Of a stretch of DNA of 64,000 nucleotides, positions 6,744 to 57,419 are shown in pieces; positions within the stretch are counted from its first letter, which is position 1, and each line of letters starts with the position of its first letter. Origin of the DNA: an uncultured Thiothrix sp. (lineage in GTDB: Bacteria > Pseudomonadota > Gammaproteobacteria > Poriferisulfidales > GCA-002705445). The DNA lies in assembly GCA_902559815.1 (NCBI GenBank), contig CACEJE010000003.1, positions 2,520-66,519 on the forward strand, in the 5' to 3' direction. The position numbers and the translations under genes were made by a program. Under the pieces are notes generated by a model. The model searched no databases. It saw nothing but the letters and a program-made list of their open reading frames with translations, and was not told the origin of the DNA.

Positions 6744-8090
6744 TTAATCGTTTACCGAAACAGATGTTTTTAAACTTGAAATTAAATATTTTTTTGCGAC
6801 TGCGCGGACTTGTTCTGCAGTTACAGAATTAATGTTTGCGGTATAATCCTCAATTATCTTTATGTCTCCAATTGAGGTCTTAGCCATTCCCAAAATTCTT
6901 GCTTGGTAGTCTATTGAATCCTGTTGGTAAACCTCGTACGCAAGAACTTGGGCTTTAATTCTATCAAGTTCTTTGTTCGTTACTAATTTTGTTTGAAGAT
7001 CAACAATTATTTTGTCTAATTCGTTTTTTACAGAACTAATTTTTTTTCCGACTATTGGGTTTACATCTATCATAAATAACGGATCATATCTTGCAAACAA
7101 AGAGTATCCAGAGTCAGCATAACTGGCAAGCTTTTTATCTCTAACTAATATCTTTTGTAATCTTGAATTTTGCCCACTACTAAGTATTCCAGATAAAACA
7201 GATAAAGCATAGCACTCCCACGAATCAATATTTTTATTATTTATACTTGGTACTTTATAACCAAGTATTAAATAAGATGGCTTGTCTTTAATTTTAATAG
7301 AAATATCTTTTTCACCAAATTGAAATGGCTCGGCTCTATCTAATCTTGTGGTGATATTTTTATTTTTTTTGTTACCATAATATTTATCTATTAATTTAAA
7401 TGTTTTTTCAAAATCTATATCTCCAACAATAACTACTGTAGCATTATTTGGTGCATACCAATTTTGATACCAATCAGATATATCTTTTTCGGTCATATTA
7501 TTTAAATCTTCCATCCAGCCTATTATCGGATCGTGATAAGAACTATTATTATAAGCACTAGCATATAACTGCTCATAAGCTATACCCTCTGGCTGATCAT
7601 CTGTTCTTAACCTACGCTCTTCTTTTATTACCTCAATTTCTTTATTAAAATCATCCTTATTAATTACTAAATTTGACATCCTGTCAGATTCCAATCTAAT
7701 TGCATCTTCTAAATAATCTGAAGGTAAAGTCTGATAATATGCTGTATAATCTTTACTGGTAAAAGCATTCTCTCTTCCACCCAACTTCGAAATAATTTCA
7801 GAAAATATACCACCAGGATTTTTTTTTGTTCCTTTAAACATCATATGTTCTAAAGCGTGAGACAACCCAGTTTTACCAGAATATTCGTCCGCAGAACCAA
7901 TTTTATACCATATATGACTTGTAACAACTGGCGCTCTAGAATCTTTTTTTAAAATAATATGCATACCATTATCAAGTGTTCTTTCCATGATTTCAGACCT
8001 CGCAGCAAAGGGAATAATGAAGAAAAACAAAAATACAGTTTTTACAAAAAAATTATATTTTAAATTTTTAAAAATAAAAAAAAAGTTCAT
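6744..8090 (-). CDS. M16-family zinc peptidase, catalytic-type subunit
   Basis: Inverted zinc motif HxxEH in 'SHALEHMMFKGT', with an N-terminal hydrophobic signal. Confidence 0.85.
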   Translation of the reverse strand: MNFFFIFKNLKYNFFVKTVFLFFFIIPFAARSEIMERTLDNGMHIILKKDSRAPVVTSHIWYKIGSADEYSGKTGLSHALEHMMFKGTKKNPGGIFSEIISKLGGRENAFTSKDYTAYYQTLPSDYLEDAIRLESDRMSNLVINKDDFNKEIEVIKEERRLRTDDQPEGIAYEQLYASAYNNSSYHDPIIGWMEDLNNMTEKDISDWYQNWYAPNNATVVIVGDIDFEKTFKLIDKYYGNKKNKNITTRLDRAEPFQFGEKDISIKIKDKPSYLILGYKVPSINNKNIDSWECYALSVLSGILSSGQNSRLQKILVRDKKLASYADSGYSLFARYDPLFMIDVNPIVGKKISSVKNELDKIIVDLQTKLVTNKELDRIKAQVLAYEVYQQDSIDYQARILGMAKTSIGDIKIIEDYTANINSVTAEQVRAVAKKYLISSLKTSVSVND

Positions 8091-8231
8091 ACAAAATTCC
8101 TTTTAGATTTACAAAAAATTATAGCCAAGTAATAATATGACAATATATCACAAAATAAATGTAAAAATAGTAATATATTATAAATTAATTATATATTAAG
8201 TAATTGATTTTATTACTCTTTATTCAAGTTA

Positions 8232-8259
8232 TTGAAAATAATTAGCACTCTTGTATAAT
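8232..8259 (+). promoter_or_regulatory. Sigma70-like promoter of rpoH (TTGAAA-16 nt-TATAAT)
   Basis: TTGAAA at 8232-8237 and TATAAT at 8254-8259, read directly. The -10 element lies in the spacer of a perfect 10-bp inverted repeat (8241-8250 / 8260-8269). Confidence 0.45.
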
Positions 8260-8288
8260 GAGTGCTAATAAAACATTTTAAAAAAATT

Positions 8289-9125
8289 ATGGTTAAAGCG
8301 CTAGAGTACAAAAATCATACACTCCCTTCATGCACAGGGAGTATTGATATATATATTAATCACGTTATGTCTATACCTGTGTTATCTACAGAAGAAGAAG
8401 TTGCGCTTGCAAAAAATCTAAAAGAAACTAATGATTTAGAGTCAGCTAAGAAATTAATTATGCATAATTTAAGATACGTTGTGTATATAGCAAAAAGTTA
8501 CAGCGGATATGGTTTAAACCTAAGCGATTTAATTCAAGAAGGAAATGTTGGTTTAATGAAGGCTGTTAAAAAATATAATCCTGAAAAAAATCTTAAACTC
8601 ATTACGTTTGCTGTTTACTGGATAAAATCTGAGATTCATGAGTTTGTAATTAAAAATTGGAAAATAGTTAAAATTGCAACAACAAAAACTCAGAGAAAAC
8701 TTTTTTTTAATTTAAGATCAAAAAAATCATCTCTCTCTAATTTGACTGCTAAAGAAGCTTCGTCAATTGCAAAAGATCTTTCTGTTCCTGTTAAAGATGT
8801 AATAGAAATGGAAAAAAGAATGGGTAATTATGACATTGCTATGGATGATAATGATGAAGAAAACATGACTCCATCTGATTTCTTAAAAAGTTCAGAGCTT
8901 GAGCCTGATGAAATTATAGAGAATACTGAAAAAGATTTAGTTACTAAAAAACTTTATAAAATTATTAATACCTTAGATCAAAGAAGTAAAGACATTATAG
9001 AAAGTAGATGGCTAGCTGAAGAAAAAACAACATTAGAAGATTTATCTAAGAAATATGGAATCTCTAGAGAAAGAGTTAGACAAATTGAAAATGAGTCAAT
9101 CCTTAAACTTAAAAATAATTTTTAG
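8289..9125 (+). CDS. rpoH: RNA polymerase sigma-32 (heat-shock sigma factor)
   Basis: 'LIQEGNVGLMKAVKKYNP', the RpoH box 'TKTQRKLFFNLRS', and region 4.2 'ISRERVRQIE'. ATG at 8289 is preferred because the GTG at 8262 lies inside the predicted promoter/TSS region. Confidence 0.9.
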   Translation: MVKALEYKNHTLPSCTGSIDIYINHVMSIPVLSTEEEVALAKNLKETNDLESAKKLIMHNLRYVVYIAKSYSGYGLNLSDLIQEGNVGLMKAVKKYNPEKNLKLITFAVYWIKSEIHEFVIKNWKIVKIATTKTQRKLFFNLRSKKSSLSNLTAKEASSIAKDLSVPVKDVIEMEKRMGNYDIAMDDNDEENMTPSDFLKSSELEPDEIIENTEKDLVTKKLYKIINTLDQRSKDIIESRWLAEEKTTLEDLSKKYGISRERVRQIENESILKLKNNF

Positions 9126-10003
9126 CTTGTTAATAAAATTAAGTATCTGTCTGAAATTAAAAAACCAAATAAAGCTGACAAATATATAATTGAATAATTA
9201 AATATTTTATTAGCTAAATCATTATTTTTTGATAATTGCATTTTAATAACATAGTAAAGAAATATCATATTTAATATAAAAGCACCTACTAAATAAAATA
9301 CACTTGAAAACTTTATAATAAAAGGTGTAAAACTTACAATAGTTAACATTAATGTATATAGTGTTATGTGCACTCTAGTATATTGCTCACCGTGAGTAAC
9401 TGGCAGCATTGGAATTTTAGCTGCAAAATATTCCTTTTTTCTATGTAATGCTAATGCCCAAAAATGTGGTGGCGTCCACATAAAAATAATTAAAAACAAA
9501 ATAATTGAAATTAAGTCAATTTGTCCGGTTACAGCGGTCCACCCTAGAAGGGGTGGTGTTGCGCCTGCCGCTCCTCCTATAACAATATTTTGTGGAGTTG
9601 CTCTTTTTAAATATAGTGTATAAACAAAAGCATACCCAACAAGAGATAAAAAAGTTAGCCAGGCTGTTAACTTATTAATATAAAAATACAAAACAAAGAA
9701 TCCTATGATAGCCATTAAAGTTGAATAAATTGCAACATTTTTTGGCTCAAGTACACCTGATACTAATGGCCTACCTTTTGTTCTGGACATTATTTTATCA
9801 ATTTTTTGATCTAACAATTGATTAATAGAGCCAGCAGAAAGCGACATTAATGCAATTCCAAGATTTCCTAAAATTAGTATTTTCAAATTAAGATTTAATG
9901 GATTTGCTAATAGCATTCCAATAAAAGAAGTAAAAATCATCAATAGTACAACTCTTGGTTTTGATGATTCAAGATAAGCTCTACATATACGATAACTAAA
10001 CAT
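9122..10003 (-). CDS. cyoE: Protoheme IX farnesyltransferase (heme O synthase)
   Basis: UbiA-family polytopic protein with 'LLDQKIDKIMSRTKGRPL' and 'TPPHFWALAL'. It is the last gene of the oxidase assembly cluster. Confidence 0.9.
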   Translation of the reverse strand: MFSYRICRAYLESSKPRVVLLMIFTSFIGMLLANPLNLNLKILILGNLGIALMSLSAGSINQLLDQKIDKIMSRTKGRPLVSGVLEPKNVAIYSTLMAIIGFFVLYFYINKLTAWLTFLSLVGYAFVYTLYLKRATPQNIVIGGAAGATPPLLGWTAVTGQIDLISIILFLIIFMWTPPHFWALALHRKKEYFAAKIPMLPVTHGEQYTRVHITLYTLMLTIVSFTPFIIKFSSVFYLVGAFILNMIFLYYVIKMQLSKNNDLANKIFNYSIIYLSALFGFLISDRYLILLTS

Positions 10004-10014
10004 AAAAGATTACC

Positions 10015-11047
10015 TTAAATATTTTTTTTAGTTGTGTAAATAAAATATAACTGTGTAACTAAACATATCAAAAGTAGTGCTGCATTACCATTATGTGCAA
10101 CAGCAATATAAATAGGCAAACTCATTTTTACATTCAAAACACCTAATAATATTTGAAAAAATAATAACAAAACTAATATTAAAGAGAGAAATTTTTGATA
10201 TGGAACTTTTAATAATTTATAAGATTTAAAAGCCAAAATAATAATTATTAAACCAGCGAATATAGCCCATATTCTATGTGTAAAATGAATAGCAACCCTT
10301 GCTGGACTATCAAGCCTTCCAAATTCGTAATTAAGATTAGTAGCCAATTCTACAAAAAAAGCATTATAAAAATCCATTTGCGGCCACCATGATGCATTAC
10401 ATTTTGGGAAATCTACACAAGCTAAAGCTGCATAGTTAGTGCTTGTCCATCCACCAAGCATGATTTGCATAATTAAAAAAAAACAGAGTTACATAAGATA
10501 GTATAGATAAACTCTTAATTTCTTTTTTTGATATTTTCGTCTTACTATAAAAACTATTTTTTTCAAAAAAACTATTTTTATTATATCTTAAGAATAAAAG
10601 CCACAGTAAAGATATGATTGTTAATCCACCAACTAGGTGAAACATAACAATTACAGGTTGAAGCTTTAAAGTAACTGTGAACATTCCAAGAGCAGCTTGA
10701 AAGATTACAAATAAAGATATAAAAAAAGAAAGCTTGAATAAACTATATGAACTTTTTTTATAAAAGATGAAAGATATAATAAAAATAAATATTCCTAAAA
10801 ATCCAGCAAGATATCTATGAATCATCTCTTTCCAGGCTTTCATTATATCTACTTTTGAGCCCTCATAGATTGATTCTGCGGCTATAATTTCTAATGAGTT
10901 ATCTGGAACGCCTACTAAATAACCATAACATCCAGGCCAATCTGGGCATCCTAGTCCGGCATGAGATAATCTTACATAAGCTCCCAATGTAATAACACAT
11001 AAAGTTATTGTTATAACAAATAATAAATAATAGTTAATTTTATCCAT
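10015..11047 (-). pseudogene. ctaA: Heme A synthase (COX15/CtaA), reading frame broken by one extra base in a homopolymer
   Basis: ORF 10436-11047 encodes the N-terminal half ('GLGCPDWPGCYG'), and ORF 10015-10470 encodes the C-terminal half. The frames switch inside a 9-nt A run (10475-10483 on +). Deleting one base gives a continuous '...YVTLFFLIMQIMLGGWTS...'. Confidence 0.85.
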
Positions 11048-12566: not shown

Positions 12567-13436
12567 CTATATCCAATATACAAATATAAATAATCCTAAC
12601 CAAACAACGTCAACAAAATGCCAGTACCAAGCTACTGCTTCAAAAGCAAAATGGTTTTTTGGATTAAAATGACCGTAAATACATCTACCCAAAATTACAA
12701 TTAGCATAATAGTACCAATTGTTACATGAAAGCCATGGAAGCCAGTTAACATGAAAAAAGTTGATCCGTAAATTCCACTTCCTAAATTAAGATTTAAATC
12801 ATTAAACGCATGTCCGTACTCTAAACCTTGAAAATACATAAATAATATACCGAGAGCTACAGTTAAGCCTAAACCAATAATTAATTGCATTCTTTTCATT
12901 TCTTTTAGCGCATGATGTGCCCAAGTTAATGTAACGCCACTAGTTAGCAAAATTGCTGTATTAATGGCAGGTAAACCCCAAGCACCCATAACTTGGAAAT
13001 CTCCTCCTATCTCTCCTGGTCCATTCGCTGTTGAAGGCCAATTAGCCTCGTATTCTGGCCATAAAAAAGTATTTGTCGCTAAACCAGCTCCTTCGCCACC
13101 TAGCCAGGGTAGTGAATATGCTCTCACATAATACAAAGCACCAAAAAAAGCTGCGAAAAACATGACCTCAGAAAAGATAAACCATATCATTCCCCATCTA
13201 AAAGACGTATCAACTTGAGTGTCATAAACTCCATTTTCGCTCTCAGATATTACTGTATTAAACCAACCAACAATCATAAATACTATTAAAGCTAAACCAA
13301 TAAATAAAACATATTTACCAAAGTTATTACCATTTAATAATGTTGATCCTCCAACCATAGCAGTACATACGGCAATAGATGCAATGATTGGCCATTTACT
13401 TCCATTTGGTATGTAGTAACTTCCTGATTCTGACAT
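12567..13436 (-). CDS. ctaE: Cytochrome c oxidase subunit III
   Basis: Seven-TM protein with 'TGFHGFHVTIG' and 'AVAWYWHFVDVVWLGLF'. Confidence 0.92.
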   Translation of the reverse strand: MSESGSYYIPNGSKWPIIASIAVCTAMVGGSTLLNGNNFGKYVLFIGLALIVFMIVGWFNTVISESENGVYDTQVDTSFRWGMIWFIFSEVMFFAAFFGALYYVRAYSLPWLGGEGAGLATNTFLWPEYEANWPSTANGPGEIGGDFQVMGAWGLPAINTAILLTSGVTLTWAHHALKEMKRMQLIIGLGLTVALGILFMYFQGLEYGHAFNDLNLNLGSGIYGSTFFMLTGFHGFHVTIGTIMLIVILGRCIYGHFNPKNHFAFEAVAWYWHFVDVVWLGLFIFVYWI

Positions 13437-13460
13437 TTTAATATCCCCTATTATTTAATT

Positions 13461-14009
13461 TTAATCTTTTTTCGATACTTTAGCAGATTCAAAAAATGAA
13501 TATGACAAAGTAAGAGTTTTAATTCTATTTGGCAGTTTTTCATCAACAGCAAAATATATAGGAAGTTTTACAACTTCTCCAGGTTTAAACTGCTGTTCCT
13601 CAAAACAAAAACACTCAATTTTTTTTAAATATTTGGATGCTTCATTTGGAGAAACACTAGGTACTGCTTGTCCAGTTATTATGGATTTGGATTTATTTGT
13701 AGCAACATAATATGTGCTATATATTTTTCCAGGAACTACTTCAATCTGAAATTCTGAAGGCTTAAACTCTAAATTTTGCTTGTTAACTTCATGAGATATA
13801 AACTGAACATTTAGCTTTTCAAAATTTATATTGCTAACATTAAGATTAATGTCGCTCTTTTCTTTTAAATTAGAAGTATTACCATTTAAACCAGTGACAT
13901 CACATATCACATTATAAAGTGGTATTAATGCAAAGGAGAACAAAAACATAGAAAAACAAATAAAAATAAGTTTTTTTGCTGTTTTAATATTTACTTTTTT
14001 CTCAATCAT
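13461..14009 (-). CDS. ctaG: Cytochrome c oxidase assembly protein CtaG/Cox11
   Basis: N-terminal TM anchor and the copper-binding motif 'ECFCFEEQ'. Confidence 0.9.
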   Translation of the reverse strand: MIEKKVNIKTAKKLIFICFSMFLFSFALIPLYNVICDVTGLNGNTSNLKEKSDINLNVSNINFEKLNVQFISHEVNKQNLEFKPSEFQIEVVPGKIYSTYYVATNKSKSIITGQAVPSVSPNEASKYLKKIECFCFEEQQFKPGEVVKLPIYFAVDEKLPNRIKTLTLSYSFFESAKVSKKD

Positions 14010-14013
14010 ATAT

Positions 14014-14112
14014 CTACCTGTATAACATAATTAAATAAAAGCTAACGTAAATAACCAATGCAATTACAACCAATGATATTGCTGTCACTTTTACTTTATT
14101 TTTTGTTTCCAA
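14014..14112 (-). CDS. Candidate 32-aa single-TM peptide between ctaD and ctaG (cytochrome oxidase small assembly protein-like)
   Basis: Translated by hand as (M)ETKNKVKVTAISLVVIALVIYVSFYLIMLYR. It has a TTG start with an in-frame TAA just upstream, and AAGAGG lies 5 nt upstream. The stop is 4 nt before the ctaG ATG. Confidence 0.35.
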   Translation of the reverse strand: METKNKVKVTAISLVVIALVIYVSFYLIMLYR

Positions 14113-14141
14113 AAAAACCTCTTAATTTTTATTTACAATTC

Positions 14142-15713
14142 CTACTTTATTGCAGGTGGTGTGTTAAAGGAATGGTACGGCGGTGGAGAAGATAAAGTCC
14201 ATTCTAAGCCTTCAGCGCCCTCCCAAACCTGATCTGTCGCTTTTTTACCACCTTTAATTGTTTTAATTATTAAATATAAAAATATTAGTTGAGCAAATCC
14301 AAAACCAAAAGCTCCAATACTTGCAATCATATTATAATCAGCAAACTGCAGTGAATAATCAGGTATTCTTCTTGGCATTCCAGCTAAACCAACAAAATGC
14401 ATTGGAAAAAATGTTAAATTAACAAAAAAAGTTGAAAGCCAAAAATGTATCTTGCCTAACGTCTCTGGATACATATTACCTGTCCATTTTGGTAACCAAA
14501 AATAACACGCAGCCATTATTGCAAATATTGATCCTGGAACTAAAACATAATGAAAATGCGCAACTACGAAATATGTATCATGGTATTGAAAATCAGCAGG
14601 TGTTATGGCTAACATTAACCCTGAAAATCCACCAATTGTAAACATTATAATAAAACCTATTGCAAATAACATTGGGGTTTCGAAAGTCATTGCACCTTTC
14701 CACATAGTCGTTACCCAATTAAAAACTTTTACTCCTGTAGGAACAGCTATTAACATGGTTGCAAACATAAAAAATACTTCACCAGCTAATGGCATACCTA
14801 CAGTAAACATATGATGTGCCCATACTATGAAAGATAAAAATGCAATTGATGCTGTAGCATAAACCATAGAGCTATAACCAAATAATGGTTTTCGTGCAAA
14901 AGTTGGGATGATAGCTGATACAACACCAAACGACGGAAGAATTAAAATATATACTTCTGGGTGTCCAAAAAACCAAAAAATATGTTGAAACATAACTGGA
15001 TCACCACCACCAGCTGCGTTAAAGAAGCTAGTTCCAAAGAACTTATCTGTAAGTAACATTGTTACGCCGCCAGCTAAAACAGGCATAACTGCTATTAATA
15101 AAAACGCCGTGATCAACCAAGTCCAAACAAATAAAGGCATTTTCATTAGTGTCATACCAGGAGCTCTCATATTTAATATTGTTGCAACAACATTTATTGC
15201 TCCCATAATAGAAGAAAGTCCCATAAAGTGAATCGCAAAAATTAAAAATGGAAATGCATCACCGGTCTGTAGACTTAAAGGTGGATATAAAGTCCAACCA
15301 CCTGCAGGAGCTCCTCCATCCATCCATAAAGTTGAAAGGAGCATCGAAAAAGCAAACGGTAAAATCCAGAAGCTCCAGTTATTCATTCTTGGTAGAGCCA
15401 TATCCGGGCCACCAATCATAATTGGTATCATCCAATTCGCTAAACCAGTAAATGCTGGCATTACAACCCCAAATATCATGACTAAGGCATGCATTGTCGT
15501 CATAGAATTAAAAAACTGTGGATCAACAAACTGAAGACCTGGCTGAAAGAGTTCAGATCTAATTACTAATGCCATCAATCCACCAATAAAAAACATTATC
15601 ATTGCAAACCAAAGATAAAGTGTTCCAATATCTTTATGGTTTGTAGTTGTAATCCATCTCATAATTCCTGATGGATGCTCTTCATGATGTGTATCGTTTA
15701 CAACCGAACTCAT
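14142..15713 (-). CDS. ctaD: Cytochrome c oxidase subunit I (aa3-type)
   Basis: 'FGHPEVYILILP', 'WAHHMFTVG' and 'VVAHFHYVLV' heme/CuB ligand motifs, in a 12-TM protein. Confidence 0.97.
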   Translation of the reverse strand: MSSVVNDTHHEEHPSGIMRWITTTNHKDIGTLYLWFAMIMFFIGGLMALVIRSELFQPGLQFVDPQFFNSMTTMHALVMIFGVVMPAFTGLANWMIPIMIGGPDMALPRMNNWSFWILPFAFSMLLSTLWMDGGAPAGGWTLYPPLSLQTGDAFPFLIFAIHFMGLSSIMGAINVVATILNMRAPGMTLMKMPLFVWTWLITAFLLIAVMPVLAGGVTMLLTDKFFGTSFFNAAGGGDPVMFQHIFWFFGHPEVYILILPSFGVVSAIIPTFARKPLFGYSSMVYATASIAFLSFIVWAHHMFTVGMPLAGEVFFMFATMLIAVPTGVKVFNWVTTMWKGAMTFETPMLFAIGFIIMFTIGGFSGLMLAITPADFQYHDTYFVVAHFHYVLVPGSIFAIMAACYFWLPKWTGNMYPETLGKIHFWLSTFFVNLTFFPMHFVGLAGMPRRIPDYSLQFADYNMIASIGAFGFGFAQLIFLYLIIKTIKGGKKATDQVWEGAEGLEWTLSSPPPYHSFNTPPAIK

Positions 15714-50213: not shown

Positions 50214-51258
50214 AGGATCTTTATCAAAAAAAGTACTATCTTGGCACAAATTAAACGGAAGACATAATTTACCTTGGCAAAAAAATATTAATCCATATAA
50301 AGTTTGGATTTCAGAAATAATGTTACAGCAAACACAAGTATCAACTGTTTTGCCATATTTCAAATTATTTATAAAAAAATACCCAAATATAAAATCTTTG
50401 GCAAATGCAAAACTTGAGGATATTTTAGAGTTGTGGACAGGCTTGGGATATTACAGGAGAGCAGAAAATATATACAAAACAGCTCAAATCTTAAAAGAAA
50501 ATTATCAATTTAAATTTCCAAAAAATTATGAAGATATTATTAATTTACCTGGTATTGGAAAATCAACTGCAGGTGCAATATTATCAATAGCATATAAAAA
50601 AAAATATCCAATTCTAGATGGTAACGTTAAAAGAGTAATAAAAAGATTGTTTGCCATACAAGGCAGCGCAAATAATGATTCAAATCTATGGACTTTATCA
50701 GAATCTATTTTACCAAATAAAAATAATGATATTTTTTCTCAGGCAATGATGGATGTTGGCTCTTTAGTATGCACAATTAATAATCCAACTTGTAGTATGT
50801 GTCCTTTAATAAAAGACTGTAAGTCTTATAAATTAAAATTAACAAAAATTATACCAGAAAAGAAAAAAAGTAATTTAATAAAAAAAAAGAAAATATATCT
50901 TTTATTAATACAAGATTATAAAAAAGATAATTTTATCTTGATGAAAAAAAACAATAAGGAAGGTTTGTGGGCAAATTTATGGAATTTGCCAAGTTTTTCT
51001 TTAAAAAAAGAATTAAATAATTTCGTTCTCAAGAATAAAATTAAAGGCAAAGTTAAAGTATTTAAAAACTTTAGCCATAATCTAACTCACTATAAACTTG
51101 ATATTTCGGTATTTCATATAAAATTATCAAATAAACTTATAATTAAAAATTATAACTGGAAAAACATTTATGATAAGATTGCAATATCAAAACCTATATT
51201 AATAACCTTTGAAAAACTTATAAAGGAGATAGAAAATGCGAATGGTAATGTGCGCTAA
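50191..51258 (+). CDS. mutY: A/G-specific adenine DNA glycosylase
   Basis: 'LPWQ', '[12 protein letters not shown]', HhH '[12 protein letters not shown]', and the 4Fe-4S cluster loop '[17 protein letters not shown]'. The GTG start overlaps the moaC end. Confidence 0.9.
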
Positions 51259-51499
51259 ATTAAAAAAGGAATTAGAAGGGCTTGATAGACCAACTTATCC
51301 TGGAGAACTTGGAAGTAAAATATTTGAAACAGTTTCAAAAGAAGCTTGGGCTTTGTGGCTAAAACATATGACTATGCTCATAAACGAATATAGGCTTACA
51401 CCAGTTGAACCAAAAGCTAGAAAATTTCTTGAGGAAGAGATGGATAAATTTTTCTTTGGTGAAGGGTCAGAACTCCCAAAAGATTTTAAACCTGAATAA
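51236..51499 (+). CDS. yggX: Fe(II)-trafficking / oxidative damage protection protein YggX
   Basis: '[31 protein letters not shown]' matches YggX. mutY-yggX adjacency as in E. coli. The exact Met is uncertain (51236, 51242 or 51248). Confidence 0.85.
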
Positions 51500-52399
51500 C
51501 TAGACTACTTTTTTTAAGCTAATTAAATTAAAAATTATATGCGGTAATGTAAGACAGGCTAGAGCAATAAAAATGTATTTTACTACCAAAACTTCTAAGG
51601 ATTGATTATACAAGTTAGAAATCAGATAGATAGATAATAAAGAAAAAATAAAAGACGAAGCAACTATTAAAATTAAAAAACTTTTAATAGAAAAGTTTTT
51701 TGGCACATGATTCAAAACAAAAATTGATTCTAAAAAATGCCTTATAGAATGCAATAAACAAAAATAAAGTATAAATGATATTAATGGCGGTAATACAACA
51801 AAATTTAAAAAATATACACCGCTTTCAATTTTTGAAATTAAGTTTTGTTTCTTAAAAAATAAAAAATAAAATAACGAAAATAGTAAAAAATAAATTTTTT
51901 CATTATAACTAAAACTTATATGGTCAATATTTTTTTCAATTAGTATAGAAAAAAAATAACTTACTTCATTAAAATGAAAAATTATCGGAGCTGTGATAAT
52001 TATAGATCCATCTATCAAAATCTGAATATTTATAAAATTTTTATTATTTTTATAGTAATTGTAATCTTCATATCCAAAATGATATAGTGAAATTAATAAA
52101 AAAAATATTAATGATAAAAATGGAAAAAAATACCAAAAAGAACCATATGCAAGTATTATAAAAATATAGGAAAAAGAAAAATACATAATCCAATTTTTTT
52201 TTGTATTTTTAAAAATATTTTTACCTATAGAAAAATCGAAAAATCCATGTGGAATACCAATAAGAGAAACAAAAATTAATAATAGAAAAACTTGGGTTTG
52301 ATTATCATTTAATAAATATGAATTATAGTAAATAAAAATACTTAGAAAACTTAAAAGTATAAATATAACTGAATGGATAATTTTAAATTTATTTATCAT
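51500..52399 (-). CDS. blh: Beta-carotene 15,15'-dioxygenase (Brp/Blh family), retinal-forming
   Basis: Polytopic membrane protein with four conserved His contexts: 'GIPHGFFD', 'SLYHFGYED', 'LLHSIRHF' and 'LTLPHI'. It lies 2 nt downstream of crtY in the PR-linked operon. Confidence 0.8.
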   Translation of the reverse strand: MINKFKIIHSVIFILLSFLSIFIYYNSYLLNDNQTQVFLLLIFVSLIGIPHGFFDFSIGKNIFKNTKKNWIMYFSFSYIFIILAYGSFWYFFPFLSLIFFLLISLYHFGYEDYNYYKNNKNFINIQILIDGSIIITAPIIFHFNEVSYFFSILIEKNIDHISFSYNEKIYFLLFSLFYFLFFKKQNLISKIESGVYFLNFVVLPPLISFILYFCLLHSIRHFLESIFVLNHVPKNFSIKSFLILIVASSFIFSLLSIYLISNLYNQSLEVLVVKYIFIALACLTLPHIIFNLISLKKVV

Positions 52400-52401
52400 T
52401 T

Positions 52402-53511
52402 TTATTGAAGAAATTTTGTTTTTGGTAAATATATTATTATTTTGATAATATCTAGAATATTTGGTATATCTGATAAAAATTTAATTTGTGATTTGTGTGA
52501 TTTTTTATTAAATAATGAATATAGCGCATTTTTCATATACTCAGGATTATCCTCTATCAATCTTAAAAATATTTCGTCCATTTTTCTCAATACAAAGGAA
52601 TGAAAATATTTTTTTCCTTTATATTTTCCTTTATATATCTCATCAATAGATGAAAATATTTTGTCTGTCTGTTTTTGAATGTTTATAAATGTGTAGCCAG
52701 TGCTAGCACGTGTTGCACCTGAATATGATCCGATTTTAGTAATATAGCTATTACAGCTGCCTGAAATTAAAGTATCCATAGGTATTCGCCCTGCCTCTGT
52801 CTTTTCAATCTTAATGTTCGATAAATTATAATTTTCTTTAAGAAAATCTTTAATATATTTCTCGTCTAAATATTTTTTTTCTATTTCACTAGAAAAATAT
52901 GTGGATTCAAAAAGTGCATATTTACTTGAAAATGGCAAAACATACATAAAATGAAACTTATTTTTTGTATCCAAAAAATCCATAAAAATTGGTTTATTTT
53001 CATCAAATACATCTTCGTCTGAGCGAATATAAGCCCCAAAAAACTGCTGCCACATTTTAATATTTCTTTTTATTGGCCTACTATCAAAAACATGATTACA
53101 TTCATAATTATTATCTTTTGTATAAACTAAAACTTTGTTAGAGTGATATTTTAAATCAACTACTTCTGAGTTACATTGAATCTCTATATTATTGCAAGTC
53201 CTAATTTTTTCTAATATGAAATTAGTAAATTTATGTGAATCAATTGACTGATATTTATAATTTTCACAATCAATTTCTATATATTTATTATTTTTCTTTA
53301 CAATCATTTTATCCCATTTTTTTTCAGATAAATGACTAAAAGGATTTTTGTAGGTATCCCAAAAAGACCATAACTTATTTTTTTCAAGTAAATTTTTTTG
53401 TGACTCTAATATACATACTTTATATTCTTTTTTTATCATTCTATATGCTAAGCTTAAGCCAGCGCAACCAGAGCCTATAATTATAAAATCATATTTTTTT
53501 AAAATTGACAT
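52402..53511 (-). CDS. crtY: Lycopene beta-cyclase
   Basis: N-terminal dinucleotide fold 'DFIIIGSGCAGLSLA' and CrtY-like length. It sits between crtB and blh and overlaps crtB by 23 nt. Confidence 0.8.
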   Translation of the reverse strand: MSILKKYDFIIIGSGCAGLSLAYRMIKKEYKVCILESQKNLLEKNKLWSFWDTYKNPFSHLSEKKWDKMIVKKNNKYIEIDCENYKYQSIDSHKFTNFILEKIRTCNNIEIQCNSEVVDLKYHSNKVLVYTKDNNYECNHVFDSRPIKRNIKMWQQFFGAYIRSDEDVFDENKPIFMDFLDTKNKFHFMYVLPFSSKYALFESTYFSSEIEKKYLDEKYIKDFLKENYNLSNIKIEKTEAGRIPMDTLISGSCNSYITKIGSYSGATRASTGYTFINIQKQTDKIFSSIDEIYKGKYKGKKYFHSFVLRKMDEIFLRLIEDNPEYMKNALYSLFNKKSHKSQIKFLSDIPNILDIIKIIIYLPKTKFLQ

Positions 53512-54346
53512 CCGGTAACCCTTTTAAAAATTTATGTAAGTTAGAATTATGTTTTTTAGAATATGTGGGTAATATGAAAAAAATTATAAATTCAAATATA
53601 CAATTAATTAAGATTAACAACTTTTCAAAAACTGTTATATAAATATTTTCTTCTAAAAATTCTATATTCGTTTTTTTTATTTTTTTCCCAATTGATTGAT
53701 ACATTCTTAATGCAATTAATATTGATAACCTTGATCTAATCGGTATATATCTAAGGCCGTTTAAAGCGCTGTTATAATATATATCTGATTTTATTAATAA
53801 ATTGTGAATAACTTTTTTTAATTTTATTTTATCAGAATAATTTAGATTACAAACATCTTCGTCTAATATACCAGTATCTTTTGGCAAATAAATTCTTTGT
53901 TTCTTATAATCTTGAATAACATCTCTCGATATATTTGTAAGTTGCATAGCAATTCCTAGATCTATTGCATAATATTTTGCATCATTATTGTTGATATTAA
54001 GCGCTTTAGTCATCATAAGACCAACTACTCCTGCAACTTTATAACAATATCTAATAAGTTCTTCGGTATTTTTAAATCTTTGGAAATTCTTATCGGAATA
54101 TATTCCATCTATTAGTTGTTGAATTATTTCTTGGCTTACACCATATGATTGAATAATATCTTTAAGATCTTGCATCTTTTCTGATTCTGTTATTTCTTTA
54201 CCCTCATCAACTATATCATCGTGAAGGCGACAATAAGAATATATATTTATAACCTTCCCTAATACATCACGTGGTAAGAATCTGCTTGCCCAAAAGAAAG
54301 ATTTACTATGCTGAGAGATTATTTTTTTATTATTTATTATGTCCAT
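53489..54346 (-). CDS. crtB: Phytoene synthase
   Basis: 'HSKSFFWASRFLP', 'YSYCRLHDDIVD' and 'GIAMQLTNISRDVIQD', which are the squalene/phytoene synthase Asp-rich motifs. Confidence 0.9.
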   Translation of the reverse strand: MDIINNKKIISQHSKSFFWASRFLPRDVLGKVINIYSYCRLHDDIVDEGKEITESEKMQDLKDIIQSYGVSQEIIQQLIDGIYSDKNFQRFKNTEELIRYCYKVAGVVGLMMTKALNINNNDAKYYAIDLGIAMQLTNISRDVIQDYKKQRIYLPKDTGILDEDVCNLNYSDKIKLKKVIHNLLIKSDIYYNSALNGLRYIPIRSRLSILIALRMYQSIGKKIKKTNIEFLEENIYITVFEKLLILINCIFEFIIFFILPTYSKKHNSNLHKFLKGLPDVNFKKI

Positions 54347-55805
54347 AATCTTTTAAAATCAATTTTTCAGTTACTTTAGCTGTAGATAGCACTCCTGGTA
54401 CCCCTGCTCCAGGATGCGTACTTGCTCCAACAAAATATAATCCATCAGAAGAATGGCATTTATTTCCATACCGAAAATAAGCAGATTGTGTAAAAACTGG
54501 TTGAATACCAAAACCACTGCCAGCGTAAGTATTAAGATCATTTTCAAAATAATTTGGAGTAACAAAAAATTTATTTACAATATTACTAGACAATTCGGGC
54601 ATAATTTTTTCCTCTAATATACTTATAATTATTGAAGAAAATTCTTTTCCTCTATTTTCCCAATTAATATTACTTAAATTATTTGGAACTGGAGCTAACA
54701 CATAAAATGTATCGTTGTTATTTTGAATCATTGATTTATCTGTAGCACTTGGCCTATGCAAATAAAGGCTTGGGTCAGTTATAAAAACTTTTTTATTAAA
54801 TATGTCGTTCAAAAGCTCTTGATGTCTTTTACTAAATATAATTGTGTGGTGTTTTACAGAAGTGTATATTTTTTTTGTTGCAAAATATAGCACGAATAAA
54901 CTCATAGAATGTTTTAAGTTCAATCTATTTGTTATTTTTTTTGGTTTAATATTTAATAATTTTTGATATGTATATGTTGGATCAGAGTTACAAACTACTG
55001 CATCACAATTTATTATTCCTTCACTAGTTTCAACACCTACTACTTTTTTTCCTTTTAGAATTATCTTATGAGCTTCTGTGCTTTTTTTTATCTCGACATC
55101 CTTTTTATTTAGTAATTTTTCTAAAGCATCTACAATTTTACCAGTGCCTCCCTGAGCGTAATAAACACCCCATTTCCATTCTAGGTACTGTATTAAAAGG
55201 TATATTGATGTAGTGCTATATGGGTTTCCGCCGACAAGCAATGGATGCATACTTAATGCTTTATTTAAGTTTTTGTCTCCTAAATATTTATCAACAGTTT
55301 GGTATACAGATCTATCAAATCTAATATTTATGAGATCTGGCAAATGCTTTACCATGCTTAATATTGATTCAAATGGTTCTTCGGATAATTCTATGAATGC
55401 TTTGTTAAAAATTTTCTTCGAGTGTTTTAGTAATTTTAAATAACTTTTAGAATTTTGATATCCATATTTTGATTTAATTTCTCTAACTGTTGTACTTAGT
55501 TTGTCTCCATAATCCAAATATTCTCCATTTTCAAAGAGAAAACGATACCAAGGTTTTACTGGCAATAAATTCACATAATCTTGTAAATTTTCAGAATGCA
55601 GTGTAAACAATTCATTAATTAAATATGGTGCTGTTATAACAGTTGGGCCTGCATCATATTTATAACCATTGTTATAAAAAGTTCTTGCGCGCCCCCCCAA
55701 GTCAGATTGTTTTTCAATTAATGTAGTATTAAAGCCTTTGCTACTTAATCGAGATGCAATTGAAAGACCTCCAAATCCTGATCCAATAACAACAATTTTT
55801 TTCAT
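54330..55805 (-). CDS. crtI: Phytoene desaturase
   Basis: 'KIVVIGSGFGGLS', 'YDAGPTVIT', and the C-terminal 'VGASTHPGAGVPGV'. Confidence 0.92.
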   Translation of the reverse strand: MKKIVVIGSGFGGLSIASRLSSKGFNTTLIEKQSDLGGRARTFYNNGYKYDAGPTVITAPYLINELFTLHSENLQDYVNLLPVKPWYRFLFENGEYLDYGDKLSTTVREIKSKYGYQNSKSYLKLLKHSKKIFNKAFIELSEEPFESILSMVKHLPDLINIRFDRSVYQTVDKYLGDKNLNKALSMHPLLVGGNPYSTTSIYLLIQYLEWKWGVYYAQGGTGKIVDALEKLLNKKDVEIKKSTEAHKIILKGKKVVGVETSEGIINCDAVVCNSDPTYTYQKLLNIKPKKITNRLNLKHSMSLFVLYFATKKIYTSVKHHTIIFSKRHQELLNDIFNKKVFITDPSLYLHRPSATDKSMIQNNNDTFYVLAPVPNNLSNINWENRGKEFSSIIISILEEKIMPELSSNIVNKFFVTPNYFENDLNTYAGSGFGIQPVFTQSAYFRYGNKCHSSDGLYFVGASTHPGAGVPGVLSTAKVTEKLILKDYGHNK

Positions 55806-55814
55806 AATTTTGCC

Positions 55815-55848
55815 AAAATAAAAAAAGGCTCACTTTTTACAGCGAGCC
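55815..55848 (-). terminator. Rho-independent terminator between proteorhodopsin and crtI
   Basis: The minus-strand RNA reads GGCUCGC-UGUAAAAA-GUGAGCC (7 bp including one G-U pair), followed by UUUUUUUAUUUU. It begins 22 nt after the PR stop. Confidence 0.6.
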
Positions 55849-55869
55849 TTTTAAAAGTTTAAAATCTAC

Positions 55870-56646
55870 TTATGCAGATTCTTTAACAGCTGCTGCCCAA
55901 ATAATCACACCAAATGCGATTTTATTAATAAAGTCAGCTAAGTTATAAACTATGTTTACTGTTGCTGGATCTGTTCCACCTGCTAGATAACCTAAGAAGT
56001 ATCCTAGTGGGTAAATTGCCCAACCAACTGTAACAATTAAACGCATAGCACCGAAAGCTGTTTGACATGCCTCGCTACCACTAGCTGCGTTTGCTTTACT
56101 TGCTTCACCAGCAAAAATTTCATAAAGAATGTATAGCCAACCGATCATCCCTATAATGAAACCTGTCATTGCAGACATCATTCCTGCTTCTCCTGCAAAT
56201 CCACCAATAAGCATTACTAAAGTACCTATTAATAGTCTCCAGAATATACCAGCTGAAACAACTGATACAGCTGCTAGAATCAAGTAGAATTCAATCATTT
56301 GTAGAGGTACAGTTAATAACCAATCAATATATCTTAAAACTGTTGGTGAATCACCTGTAGACACCCAAACTTCTCTCATGTAGAAGTAGTGAACTGCAGC
56401 AATCAATGTAACTAAACCTACAACTGTTAATGATGTTTTCCATTTGGCACTCACTCTATCTCTTTCAATAAGAAAGAATACAGTAGATGCAACCATCGCA
56501 ATGGAAATTATCCAGAAAGTAACTCCAACCGTGTCATCAGGGCTTAAACCACTGCTGTGACCACCTGCTAAAGCAATTGTTGGTAAGGAGATTACTACTA
56601 GAAGAGTTGCAAAAAGTTTTTTGCTAAAATCTAATAATTTAATCAT
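55870..56646 (-). CDS. Proteorhodopsin (light-driven proton pump), blue-absorbing type (Gln at tuning position 105)
   Basis: Near-colinear with SAR86-type PR: 'VFFLIERDRVSAKWKTSLTV', 'GDSPTVLRYIDWLLTVPLQMIEFYLIL' (Asp97, Thr101, Gln105, Glu108) and 'YNLADFINKIAFG' (Schiff-base Lys). The ATG at 56646 (MIKLL, signal-like N-terminus) is preceded by GAGGA. Confidence 0.95.
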   Translation of the reverse strand: MIKLLDFSKKLFATLLVVISLPTIALAGGHSSGLSPDDTVGVTFWIISIAMVASTVFFLIERDRVSAKWKTSLTVVGLVTLIAAVHYFYMREVWVSTGDSPTVLRYIDWLLTVPLQMIEFYLILAAVSVVSAGIFWRLLIGTLVMLIGGFAGEAGMMSAMTGFIIGMIGWLYILYEIFAGEASKANAASGSEACQTAFGAMRLIVTVGWAIYPLGYFLGYLAGGTDPATVNIVYNLADFINKIAFGVIIWAAAVKESA

Positions 56647-56946
56647 ATCGTTATTCCTCGAGTTATTATAAATATGTTTAACCCTAAACATTCTAGACAA
56701 ATATTTTAAAAAATAAACCCTTAATTATTAGCAAAACCTATACATTTTTTAAAACATAAGTCATTGAAAATAAATATAATTTTTATTTAGTTAATAAGAA
56801 TTTTTATTGATTTAAATATTATAATACACTAATATTTTTAAAAATTTGGTCATTTTTATTTATGATTTCTTTTAAATTTTTCTCAGTTAAATTGAGCACA
56901 TTGGTGTATACTCACTTTTTTTCTTAGCAAATTATAAATAAAGTTT

Positions 56947-57022
56947 GGCTTGGTAGCTCAGTTGGTAGAGCAGTGGACTGAAAATCCTCGTGTCGGCAGT
57001 TCGATTCTGCCCCAAGCCACCA
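56947..57022 (+). tRNA. tRNA-Phe (GAA)
   Basis: Folded by hand. The acceptor stem GGCTTGG/CCAAGCC is perfect, the D stem is GCTC/GAGC, and the anticodon loop is CTGAAAA. The T arm is GGCAG-TTCGATT-CTGCC and the CCA is encoded. There is one U-U mismatch in the anticodon stem. Confidence 0.9.
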
Positions 57023-57041
57023 TTTATAAAAAAATTCTCTT

Positions 57042-57419
57042 TTAAGATAAATCTATTGCATACTTTTTCAACAAATTAATATCAATAACTTCTAAAGCTA
57101 GAATATTTGTGCTCTTCACTAATACAGGAGGAGCAACATCATCATTTACAGCTTCAAGCCATCTCATTGCGCAAACACACCACTTATCACCTTCCTTTAA
57201 ACCTGGAAATTCAAATTCCGGTCTTGGTGTGATCAAATCATTTCCTTTTCTTTTTGAATATTTCAAAAACTCATCTGTAACTATTGCACAAACAGTATGA
57301 CTACCTACATCATCATCTAATGTTTCACAAGACCCATTTCTTAAATAGCCTGTCATAGTCTCATTACTACAAGTTTCTATAGTTTCACCAAATACATTCT
57401 TATTAAATTTTTTATCCAT
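57042..57419 (-). CDS. DUF2237-family protein
   Basis: 'GSHTVCAIVTDEFL' and 'GDKWCVCAMRWLEA' are conserved Cys contexts typical of DUF2237. It overlaps the upstream MFS gene by 8 nt. Confidence 0.7.
   Translation of the reverse strand: MDKKFNKNVFGETIETCSNETMTGYLRNGSCETLDDDVGSHTVCAIVTDEFLKYSKRKGNDLITPRPEFEFPGLKEGDKWCVCAMRWLEAVNDDVAPPVLVKSTNILALEVIDINLLKKYAIDLS

What the first reader, a model, noticed from the sequence alone, without database searches (positions are those of the whole stretch)
51500..56700. Compact proteorhodopsin photosystem: blue-tuned PR followed by crtI-crtB-crtY-blh, with no crtE or idi in the cluster
The opsin carries the full proton-pump set: Asp97, Thr101 and Glu108 in 'IDWLLTVPLQMIEF', His75 in 'VHYFYMR', and the Schiff-base Lys in 'DFINKIAFG'. 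It has Gln at tuning position 105, the residue that distinguishes blue-absorbing from green-absorbing (Leu105) proteorhodopsins.

Four tightly overlapping genes downstream supply phytoene synthase, desaturase, lycopene cyclase and the retinal-forming dioxygenase. The GGPP synthase (crtE) and IPP isomerase (idi) found in many six-gene PR-linked clusters are absent from this window. GGPP must therefore come from elsewhere.

By eye, the PR gene uses noticeably more G/C-containing codons than the extremely AT-rich blh and crtY genes. The module is bounded by a tRNA-Phe gene.
Basis: partly seen in the sequence, partly recalled or inferred. Interest (0 to 1): 0.6.

Follow-up and report, generated by a model that had tools for sequence, protein, structure and literature searches.

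The report
Blue proteorhodopsin with retinal-synthesis operon
This is a real but already well-known gene cassette, a blue-light proton pump plus four retinal-making enzymes, in a tiny-genome marine sulfur-oxidising-type gammaproteobacterium; its unusual points are that the whole lineage has no dedicated enzyme for the pathway's starting material and that related species swap blue and green pump genes.

Summary
On the minus strand lie proteorhodopsin (PR, 55870-56646), crtI, crtB, crtY and blh, all with strong family matches. All proton-pump residues are present. Gln sits at tuning position 105, aligned with solved blue PRs.

This five-gene cassette is a known kind (BAC MED13K09, Sabehi 2005). 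This scan has already met the same cassette type on other DNA.

What I add:
1. No crtE exists anywhere in this genome. None was found in 16 relatives of its family, several 97-98% complete, nor in 16 genomes of a second ~1 Mb family with the same cassette. Only ispA (FPP-synthase type, Tyr at -5) and ispB are present, so the GGPP source is unexplained. Leakage from a housekeeping enzyme is my inference. idi is dispensable because ispH is present.
2. The high GC of PR and low GC of blh are real but mostly reflect amino-acid composition.
3. A conserved terminator follows PR.
4. The cassette is missing from the same tRNA-Phe/yggX site in two relatives.
5. Congeners carry either Q105 or L105 PR. 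The PR tree conflicts with the neighbouring genes, and one species pair shares a 1.25-kb, 95-99% identical tract, so PR alleles recombine between species.

Verdict: ordinary photosystem, new member of a known kind.

The parts
55870..56646 (-). Proteorhodopsin gene (258 aa from the ATG at 56646; the mechanical ORF extends to a TTG at 56700)
   Evidence: Pfam Bac_rhodopsin, 158.6 bits. E about 3e-87 to blue PRs 4KLY and 4JQ6 and to green PR 8CQC/2L6X. AGGA lies 8 nt before the ATG at 56646. Relatives start at the same Met.
56299..56301 (-). CAA codon for Gln at spectral-tuning position 105 (GPR numbering)
   Evidence: One search gives the coordinates. One search aligns this Gln with Q105 of blue PRs (VPLQ) and with L105 of green PR (VPLL).
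55823..55852 (-). Intrinsic-terminator-like hairpin (12-bp stem followed by a T run) between the PR stop and the crtI start
   Evidence: It is the only terminator-like site in 51200-57200. The hairpin is conserved in all 8 relatives. The other genus (G016) has a different stem sequence that still pairs.
54330..55805 (-). crtI, phytoene desaturase (491 aa)
   Evidence: TIGR02734 crtI_fam, 473.5 bits against a cut-off of 238. GSGFGG FAD motif at residue 8.
53489..54346 (-). crtB, phytoene synthase (285 aa); overlaps crtI by 17 nt
   Evidence: Pfam SQS_PSY, 160 bits. Asp-rich motifs DDIVD (residue 43) and RDVIQD (residue 141).
52402..53511 (-). crtY, lycopene beta-cyclase (369 aa); overlaps crtB by 23 nt
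   Evidence: Pfam Lycopene_cycl, 164 bits. GSGCAG motif.
51500..52399 (-). blh, beta-carotene 15,15'-dioxygenase (299 aa); its stop codon abuts the stop of yggX
   Evidence: TIGR03753, 161.6 bits against a cut-off of 95; Pfam BCD, 145.9 bits. His residues in IPHG, YHFG and HSIRH.
56647..56946 (-). AT-rich PR upstream region (presumed promoter and leader) between PR and the divergent tRNA-Phe
   Evidence: Only weak sigma-70-like matches, at 56753-56724. The part nearest PR is 85-91% identical to G009, against 72-77% in the flanks.
56947..57022 (+). tRNA-Phe(GAA), the conserved boundary of the cassette
   Evidence: ARAGORN. It is present at the same site in all relatives, including the two that lack the cassette.
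51236..51499 (+). yggX (Fe2+-trafficking / oxidative-damage protection protein), the other conserved boundary
   Evidence: PF04362, 133.5 bits. In G011 and G015 it lies directly next to tRNA-Phe.

Best explanation
The region encodes a native, functional proteorhodopsin photosystem.

**The pump.** The opsin is a blue-absorbing (Gln105), outward light-driven proton pump. It is transcribed from its own upstream region and followed by an intrinsic terminator. That layout would let PR be made in large amounts while only read-through, or a weak internal promoter, drives the translationally coupled crtI-crtB-crtY-blh genes.

**The retinal pathway.**
- CrtB condenses two GGPP molecules into phytoene.
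- CrtI desaturates phytoene to lycopene.
- CrtY cyclises lycopene to beta-carotene.
- Blh cleaves beta-carotene into two all-trans retinal molecules, which bind the Schiff-base lysine.

**Precursors.** IPP and DMAPP come from the MEP pathway (dxs and ispH are present), so idi is not needed. There is no dedicated GGPP synthase. I infer that the small amount of GGPP needed comes from a housekeeping prenyl synthase. That would be either IspA, which looks like an FPP synthase by sequence, or released intermediates of the octaprenyl synthase IspB.

**Evolution.** The cassette is an old resident of the lineage at a fixed site between yggX and tRNA-Phe. It has been lost from some relatives. The PR gene itself is exchanged between species by homologous recombination, which distributes blue (Q105) and green (L105) alleles.

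**Shown:** gene identities, residues, synteny, the absence of crtE, the terminator and the recombination tract. **Inferred:** pumping, the absorption maximum, the transcription pattern and the source of GGPP.
For: **Gene identities and catalytic or pump residues:**

**Tuning residue:** Q105 aligns with Q105 of solved blue PRs and with L105 of green PR.

**Terminator:** a conserved hairpin follows PR in 8 of 8 relatives. The other genus has a different stem sequence that still pairs.

**Conservation:** the ORFs are intact and the order SET-HAD-MFS-DUF2237-tRNAPhe-[PR-crtI-crtB-crtY-blh]-yggX-mutY-moaC-moaD-degP is the same in 7 congeners examined. The cassette with its right flank is also kept in a second genus, G016, on a short contig. 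PR dN/dS is far below 1.

**Native composition:** GC3 of the crt genes equals the genome mean.

**Precursor supply:** ispH scores 307 bits. dxs lies next to ispA. ubiA is present, so ispB is needed for ubiquinone.

**No third polyprenyl synthase:**
- This genome has only two PF00348 genes. My own hmmsearch with a profile of five photosystem CrtE proteins on all six frames found the same two.
- No genome of its family has a third, out of 16 searched, among them G009 (98% complete, 3 contigs), G001 (97%) and G003 (2 contigs). 14 of these 16 carry blh.
- No genome of family f162 has a third, out of 16 searched; 9 carry blh with the same five-gene cassette.
- In contrast, 4 larger blh-positive Gammaproteobacteria I inspected carry crtE between PR and crtI. 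A fifth, G152, has a third PF00348 gene on another contig.

**Cassette absent at the same site:** G011 and G015.

**PR allele exchange:** the PR tree conflicts with the crt and flank trees, where G009-Q and G003-L are sisters at 100/100 support. For G003 against G004, PR dS is 0.059, against 0.87 for crtI and 1.3-1.6 for the flanks. A 1.25-kb tract is 95-99% identical while its flanks are about 75%.
Against: The assembly is only 80% complete, so absence of crtE in this particular genome rests partly on its relatives.

IspA carries Tyr at the fifth position before the first Asp-rich motif (HTYSLIHDD), the classical FPP-synthase chain-length stop (rule in PMC7322351). IspA of blh-positive and blh-negative relatives does not differ there. 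Sequence therefore gives no positive support for GGPP synthesis by IspA.

From my own knowledge, E. coli has the same ispA and ispB pair and is used as a crtE-dependent colour-complementation host. This argues that such leakage is small.

The lower dS of PR among the Q-type species (0.3-0.7) could partly reflect codon bias in a highly expressed gene rather than gene exchange.
Confidence: 0.8

Rival explanations
1. A normal crtE exists but lies in the roughly 20% of the genome that was not assembled. The pathway would then be entirely conventional.
For: The genome is 79.9% complete and in 34 contigs.
Against: All 16 relatives in the same family have at most two PF00348 genes, including assemblies 97-98% complete in 2-8 contigs, and most carry blh. 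A second family with the same cassette shows the same pattern in 16 of 16 genomes. A CrtE-specific profile found nothing further.
Confidence: 0.04
2. An unrecognised GGPP-forming activity supplies CrtB. This could be an enzyme not homologous to PF00348 prenyl synthases, or a CrtB that has become bifunctional.
For: Both housekeeping synthases look canonical: IspA has Tyr at -5 and IspB has the HTATLLHDD context. No sequence feature separates IspA of blh-positive genomes from blh-negative ones.
Against: No candidate gene travels with the cassette. The neighbours differ between the two families. CrtB has the usual length and motifs. DUF2237 co-occurs only partly. To my knowledge no such enzyme is known in bacteria.
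Confidence: 0.08
3. The crt-blh genes cannot work without crtE. They would be a decaying remnant, and the pump would depend on retinal or carotenoids taken up from the environment.
For: Rhodopsin-bearing bacteria that lack part of the retinal pathway are documented (PMC7734400). blh is the least conserved and most AT-rich gene of the set, about 50% identical between congeners and 18.9% GC.
Against: All four enzyme genes are intact, in the same order and overlapping in 9 genomes of two genera, and again in family f162. They diverge no faster than neighbouring housekeeping genes such as mutY, which is 52-63% identical. Where the lineage has lost PR, it has lost the four genes with it (G011, G015). 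That is what a functional unit would show.
Confidence: 0.06
4. The cassette is a recently acquired genomic island inserted at tRNA-Phe. This was suggested by the unusual GC of PR and the tRNA boundary.
For: It is adjacent to a tRNA. It shows presence/absence polymorphism at this site. Rhodopsins were not found in the other families of the order that were searched.
Against: - The cassette lies on the 5' side of the tRNA.
- There is no integrase and no partial tRNA repeat.
- GC3 of crtI, crtB and crtY equals the genome mean, and the high GC of PR lies in codon positions 1 and 2.
- The same insertion site is used in two genera whose flanking genes have saturated dS. Any acquisition therefore predates the family's radiation.
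- Only the PR gene itself shows recent exchange.
Confidence: 0.05

Closest known systems
PR-linked 'crtIBY, blh' operon of Mediterranean BAC MED13K09 (Sabehi et al. 2005, PLoS Biol 3:e273, PMC1175822)
   Same: - A blue-absorbing PR accompanied by a crtI-crtB-crtY-blh operon with no crtE in it.
- The host is an uncultured deep-branching gammaproteobacterium that also carries dsrAB. dsrA and dsrB are present in this genome, in its relatives and in family f162.
   Different: Sabehi et al. reported a 'crtE' about 25 kb from the operon. In family f162 the only prenyl synthase at that distance from blh is the ispA ortholog, 21-24 kb away. The reported crtE was therefore probably ispA. In this genome ispA and ispB lie on other contigs, and in G009 they lie 190-350 kb from PR.
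Canonical proteorhodopsin photosystem PR-crtE-crtI-crtB-crtY-blh(-idi), as on BACs MED66A03 and RED17H08 and in Vibrio campbellii (PMC1175822, PMC3380642)
   Same: The same pump family and the same four downstream enzymes in the same order. The PR of one such cluster (P0028 lineage) is 73% identical to this one.
   Different: crtE and idi are missing here, both from the cluster and from the genome. The crtI of crtE-containing clusters is only 41-44% identical to this one, against 60-62% for the crtE-less cassette of family f162. The crt genes therefore belong to a different cassette lineage even where the PR is close.
Blue proteorhodopsins Med12 (PDB 4KLY) and HOT75 (PDB 4JQ6)
   Same: E about 3e-87 over the whole protein. 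Q105, D97 (N in the crystallised mutant), T101, E108, H75, D227 and K231 all align.
   Different: This is a different sequence with a longer N-terminal signal region. Its photocycle speed and absorption maximum are untested.
Green proteorhodopsin of SAR86 clone EBAC31A08 (PDB 2L6X, 8CQC)
   Same: The same fold and pump residues, with E about 4e-86.
   Different: It has Leu rather than Gln at position 105. Three congeners of this organism (G003, G004, G010) carry the Leu form at the same locus.

Membership tests
Proteorhodopsin (proton-pumping microbial rhodopsin, PF01036) | Seven-helix Bac_rhodopsin domain | tested here: met
   PF01036, 158.6 bits against a cut-off of 24.6. Full-length alignment to solved PRs.
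Proteorhodopsin (proton-pumping microbial rhodopsin, PF01036) | Schiff-base Lys231 and counter-ion Asp227 | tested here: met
   YNLADFINK aligns with YNLADFVNK of green and blue PR.
Proteorhodopsin (proton-pumping microbial rhodopsin, PF01036) | Proton acceptor Asp97, Thr101, proton donor Glu108 (DTE motif) and His75 | tested here: met
   RYIDWLLTVPLQMIEF and VHYFYMR align column for column with green PR.
Proteorhodopsin (proton-pumping microbial rhodopsin, PF01036) | Light-driven outward proton transport with bound retinal | not testable with these tools
   This needs heterologous expression and pH or photocurrent measurement.
Blue-absorbing PR subclass | Gln at position 105 (Leu or Met in green PR) | tested here: met
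   CAA codon at 56299-56301. It aligns with Q105 of 4KLY and 4JQ6 and with L105 of 8CQC.
Blue-absorbing PR subclass | Absorption maximum near 490 nm | not testable with these tools
   This needs spectroscopy of the expressed pigment.
Complete PR photosystem cluster (PR + crtE, crtI, crtB, crtY, blh, with or without idi) | crtI, crtB, crtY and blh adjacent to PR | tested here: met
Complete PR photosystem cluster (PR + crtE, crtI, crtB, crtY, blh, with or without idi) | Dedicated GGPP synthase crtE in the cluster or elsewhere in the genome | tested here: not met
   The genome has only ispA and ispB. The same holds in 32 related genomes of two families.
Complete PR photosystem cluster (PR + crtE, crtI, crtB, crtY, blh, with or without idi) | IPP isomerase idi (optional member) | tested here: not met
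   No type 1 idi was found. The only type 2 hit scores 25.6 bits, inside a 1489-aa frame. ispH is present, so idi is dispensable.
crtE-less 'crtIBY, blh' cassette (MED13K09 type) | PR plus crtI-crtB-crtY-blh with no crtE in the operon, in a dsr-bearing gammaproteobacterium | tested here: met
   with the description in PMC1175822.
Brp/Blh beta-carotene 15,15'-dioxygenase (TIGR03753) | Family score above the cut-off and conserved iron-binding histidines | tested here: met
   161.6 bits against a cut-off of 95.25. His51, His107, His217 and His221 sit in IPHG, YHFG and HSIRH. That four His residues bind iron is from my own knowledge of the family.
Type II GGPP synthase (reading IspA as a hidden CrtE) | Small residues at positions -5 and -4 before the first Asp-rich motif | tested here: not met
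   IspA has HTYSLIHDD, with Tyr at -5 as in E. coli IspA. Photosystem CrtE proteins have HNASLxHDD. IspA's best family match is FPPsyn at 287 bits, above its cut-off. Its CrtE score is 184 bits against a cut-off of 460.

The most novel reading that the evidence does not exclude
Two families of ~1 Mb marine, dsr-bearing Gammaproteobacteria make retinal with no dedicated GGPP synthase. Genome streamlining would have removed crtE. The C20 precursor would then come from a housekeeping enzyme that looks like a strict FPP synthase (IspA, Tyr at -5), from intermediates released by octaprenyl synthase IspB, or from an as yet unknown GGPP-forming enzyme. If so, crtE is not a required part of a bacterial retinal pathway, and the chain-length rule read from sequence does not predict what these IspA enzymes do in the cell.
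Probability: 0.55. Interest if true: 0.45.

Novelty: new member of a known kind. Interest (0 to 1): 0.3.

Why it matters
As a photosystem this is ordinary. It adds one more lineage to the many marine bacteria that carry a PR plus a retinal operon. Two points could be worth a specialist's attention.

First, near-complete genomes of two tiny-genome families consistently lack any crtE. This gives a clean natural test case for how little GGPP-synthase activity a retinal pathway needs. It also suggests that 'crtE' annotations in this group, possibly including the 2005 BAC, may in fact be ispA.

Second, within one genus the blue and green PR alleles sit at the same locus and move between species on roughly 1-kb recombination tracts. 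This is a direct view of how spectral tuning can be redistributed among co-existing species without moving the whole cassette.

Tried and rejected
1. **A hidden crtE.** I searched with PF00348, NF045685 and my own profile of five photosystem CrtE proteins. Only ispA and ispB turned up.
2. **A chain-length switch in IspA.** The alignment of 17 IspA orthologs shows Tyr at -5 in every one, and no residue in the chain-length region separates blh-positive from blh-negative genomes.
3. **IspB as a disguised short-chain synthase.** Rejected. It has the E. coli-type HTATLLHDD context, sits beside rplU-rpmA-obg, and ubiA is present.
4. **A C30 (FPP-based) carotenoid route.** Rejected on chemistry: 4,4'-diapocarotenoids cannot be cyclised or cleaved to C20 retinal. 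This rests on established knowledge.
5. **A foreign-island reading of the GC contrast.** Rejected by GC3 and by the absence of repeats.
6. **DUF2237 as a cassette-linked helper.** Its co-occurrence is only partial. It is absent from the two PR-less genomes of this family but present in a blh-negative f162 genome.
7. **Surveys for other crtE-less, blh-positive lineages.** The class-wide and phylum-wide samples were too sparse to say how common the state is outside these two families. No SAR11 genome was sampled.
9. **Literature.** I found no paper discussing genome-wide absence of crtE in PR-bearing bacteria. The Martinez 2007 PNAS paper is not held.

Full report
**What is there**

The window is contig C3:2520-66519 of a 906-kb assembly in 34 contigs. 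The assembly is 79.9% complete and has 29.6% GC.

Five collinear ORFs occupy the minus strand between 51500 and 56700. Family searches identify them as follows:

| Gene | Coordinates | Best family match |
|---|---|---|
| PR (rhodopsin) | 55870-56646 | PF01036, 158.6 bits |
| crtI | 54330-55805 | TIGR02734, 473.5 bits (cut-off 238) |
| crtB | 53489-54346 | SQS_PSY, 160 bits |
| crtY | 52402-53511 | Lycopene_cycl, 164 bits |
| blh | 51500-52399 | TIGR03753, 161.6 bits (cut-off 95) |

The mechanical PR ORF begins at a TTG at 56700. The ATG at 56646 has an AGGA 8 nt upstream, and every relative starts there, so the protein is most likely 258 aa.

crtI/crtB overlap by 17 nt and crtB/crtY by 23 nt; crtY/blh are 2 nt apart. 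tRNA-Phe(GAA) lies at 56947-57022 on the plus strand.

**The opsin**

phmmer against PDB sequences puts blue PRs first (4KLY and 4JQ6, E about 3e-87) and green PR next (8CQC and 2L6X). The printed alignments place the query's VHYFYMR, RYIDWLLTVPLQMIEF and YNLADFINK on H75, D97, T101, position 105, E108, D227 and K231.

Position 105 is Gln, encoded by CAA at 56299-56301. This matches the two blue PRs, where green PR has Leu. Pumping and the absorption maximum remain untested.

**Base composition**

I compared each gene with 801 long ORFs of the genome.

| Gene | GC | GC1 | GC2 | GC3 |
|---|---|---|---|---|
| PR | 37.1% (97.5th percentile) | 0.46 | 0.43 | 0.224 (87th percentile) |
| blh | 18.9% (0.1th percentile) | 0.24 | 0.20 | 0.13 |

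GC3 of crtI, crtB and crtY is 0.17-0.18, against a genome mean of 0.188. It mostly reflects a Gly/Ala/Val-rich, highly conserved pump set against an Ile/Phe/Asn/Lys-rich, fast-evolving membrane enzyme. It is not evidence of foreign DNA.

**Transcription architecture (inferred)**

The only terminator-like site in 51200-57200 is a 12-bp hairpin followed by a T run at 55852-55823. It lies in the 64-nt spacer between PR and crtI.

The same hairpin is present in all eight relatives. The other genus (G016) has a different stem sequence that still pairs. This suggests PR is expressed strongly on its own while the enzyme genes receive read-through.

**Conservation and the insertion site**

The order SET-HAD-MFS-DUF2237-tRNAPhe-[PR-crtI-crtB-crtY-blh]-yggX-mutY-moaC-moaD-degP is identical in seven congeners examined. 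The cassette with its right-hand neighbours is also kept in a second genus of the family (G016), whose contig ends before the left flank.

Identity to the window falls along the operon:
- PR: 84-97%
- crtI: about 80%
- crtB: about 60%
- crtY: about 55%
- blh: about 50%

For comparison, the neighbour mutY is 52-63% identical.

In the relative sample, 13 of 14 congeners have both PR and blh. Neither was found in the 24 genomes of the order's three other families that were searched.

G011 (98% complete) and G015 (a different genus) lack the cassette. In both, tRNA-Phe lies directly beside yggX. The cassette lies on the 5' side of the tRNA, and there are no partial tRNA repeats. I read it as an old resident of the family that has been lost at least twice, not as a recent island.

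**No crtE and no idi**

The genome has exactly two PF00348 genes.
- One lies in the classical xseB-ispA-dxs arrangement. Its best match is the FPP-synthase model at 287 bits, above cut-off, and it has the HTYSLIHDD context.
- The other lies beside rplU-rpmA-obg. Its best match is octaprenyl diphosphate synthase, and it has HTATLLHDD.

A profile I built from five photosystem CrtE proteins, all with HNASLxHDD, found only these two genes in all six frames.

Because the assembly is incomplete, I also checked relatives.
- All 16 genomes of the family have at most two such genes. They include assemblies 97-98% complete in 2-8 contigs.
- In a class-wide sample of 400 genomes, six others carry blh. 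I inspected four of the larger ones, and all carry crtE between PR and crtI. A fifth, G152, has a third PF00348 gene on a separate contig.
- The sixth, G198 (1.1 Mb, 99% complete, family f162), has the same crtE-less five-gene cassette and only two synthases.
- Among 16 genomes of family f162, 9 carry blh and none has a third synthase.

idi is absent in both types. ispH is present at 307 bits, and it is established that IspH yields both IPP and DMAPP, so idi is dispensable. ubiA is present, so ispB is needed for ubiquinone.

**Where GGPP comes from is unexplained**

IspA has Tyr at the fifth residue before the first Asp-rich motif. This is the classical block to elongation beyond C15 (rule summarised in PMC7322351). 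IspA from blh-positive and blh-negative relatives does not differ there.

My best guess is that low-level GGPP from IspA or IspB is enough for the small retinal demand of a tiny cell. This is inference only. An unknown GGPP-forming enzyme is not excluded.

**Link to published work**

Sabehi et al. 2005 (PMC1175822) described BAC MED13K09. It came from an unassigned deep-branching gammaproteobacterium and carried a blue PR, a 'crtIBY, blh' operon, a dsr operon, ribosomal proteins L21 and L27, and a 'crtE' about 25 kb away.

dsrA and dsrB are present in this genome, in its congeners and in family f162. In f162 the gene 21-24 kb from blh is the ispA ortholog. The organism is therefore of the MED13K09 kind, and the published 'crtE' was probably ispA. 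That last point is my inference and was not checked against the BAC.

Public contigs show both layouts:
- PR-crtI-crtB-crtY-blh (P0054 lineage).
- PR-crtE-crtI-crtB-crtY-blh-idi2 (P0028 lineage).

In the second layout PR is 73% identical to this one but crtI only 43%. Pump and enzyme genes therefore have separate histories.

The nearest public record found is a 12.8-kb contig labelled 'MAG: Thiothrix sp.', whose crtY is 95% identical. I would not trust that label.

Earlier notes of this scan had already met crtE-less cassettes in other genomes and judged them ordinary.

**Blue and green alleles recombine between species**

Position 105 is Gln in the window, G001, G008, G009, G014 and G016. It is Leu in G003, G004 and G010.

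The PR tree separates an L105 clade with 100/100 support. The crtI-crtB-crtY-blh tree and the flank tree both make G009 (Gln) and G003 (Leu) sisters, also with 100/100 support.

Synonymous divergence (dS) gives the same picture:

| Comparison | Gene | dS |
|---|---|---|
| Between species (medians) | crtI, degP, MFS | about 1.6-2.0 |
| Q-type species pairs | PR | 0.3-0.8 |
| G003 vs G004 | PR | 0.059 |
| G003 vs G004 | crtI | 0.87 |
| G003 vs G004 | degP | 1.3 |

A sliding comparison of G003 with G004 shows a tract of about 1.25 kb at 95-99% identity. It covers PR, the spacer and the first 400 nt or so of crtI, and sits within roughly 75% identical DNA. That is a recent homologous-recombination tract.

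For the window's own PR, identity to Q-type congeners is 90-92% over the coding sequence, against 72-77% outside it. An older exchange or strong constraint with codon bias could both explain this.

**Verdict**

The system is a new member of a known kind. Two features are modestly interesting: the lineage-wide lack of any dedicated GGPP synthase, and the exchange of spectral PR alleles between species.

Noticed in passing
G003 L018:9290-10540 against G004 L021 (relatives); window PR 55870-56650: A tract of about 1.25 kb is 95-99% identical between two species whose flanking DNA is about 75% identical. It covers PR, the terminator spacer and the 5' end of crtI. The PR tree is incongruent with the neighbouring genes, so blue and green PR alleles move between species by recombination.
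   Followed up: yes
G000:C7:872-3154 (own genome, outside the window); also G009, G001, G198, G829: dsrA (614 bits, above cut-off) with dsrB next to it is present in this genome and in both tiny-genome families. This ties them to the PR-plus-dsr BAC MED13K09 of Sabehi et al. 2005.
   Followed up: partly
window 57042-57419 (DUF2237, minus strand): The DUF2237 gene beside tRNA-Phe is present in every PR-bearing congener examined. It is absent from the whole genome in the two PR-less relatives, G011 and G015. In family f162 it occurs in one blh-positive and one blh-negative genome, so the link to the photosystem is only partial.
   Followed up: partly
L019 (G009:C2) 12822-14484, between tRNA-Phe and DUF2237: G009 has a 2-kb insertion on the 3' side of tRNA-Phe. 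It carries a GNAT Acetyltransf_5/FeeM-like N-acyl amino acid synthase and a PlsC-type acyltransferase. This looks like an OlsB/OlsA-type ornithine-lipid pair, and it marks this side of the tRNA as a variable spot.
   Followed up: partly
L029 (G011:C4) 7529-10400: In the PR-less congener G011, the DUF2237 position is taken by a trio of a 59-aa ORF, an 88-aa ORF and a 502-aa YeiH-like (PF03601) membrane protein. Only a 44-aa C-terminal remnant of mutY remains. G015 keeps only the first ~210 residues of MutY. Loss of MutY could raise G:C to T:A mutation in these AT-rich genomes.
   Followed up: partly
G008:C35:2982-3698 (L025): One congener has a second, divergent blh-like gene, 27% identical and scoring 154.8 bits to TIGR03753. 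It lies on a 4-kb contig and may be a paralog or contamination.
   Followed up: no
G013:C21:3528-4283 and G012 contigs C12/C15: In two low-completeness congeners, blh carries an in-frame TAG (G013) and PR is split across two contigs (G012). These are probably assembly artefacts.
   Followed up: no
L055/L056 (ENA nanopore-type contigs of the P0054 lineage): In these contigs crtY, ATP-synthase genes and others are split into adjacent fragments, typical of uncorrected long-read frameshifts. An earlier scan note reached the same conclusion for a look-alike cluster.
   Followed up: no
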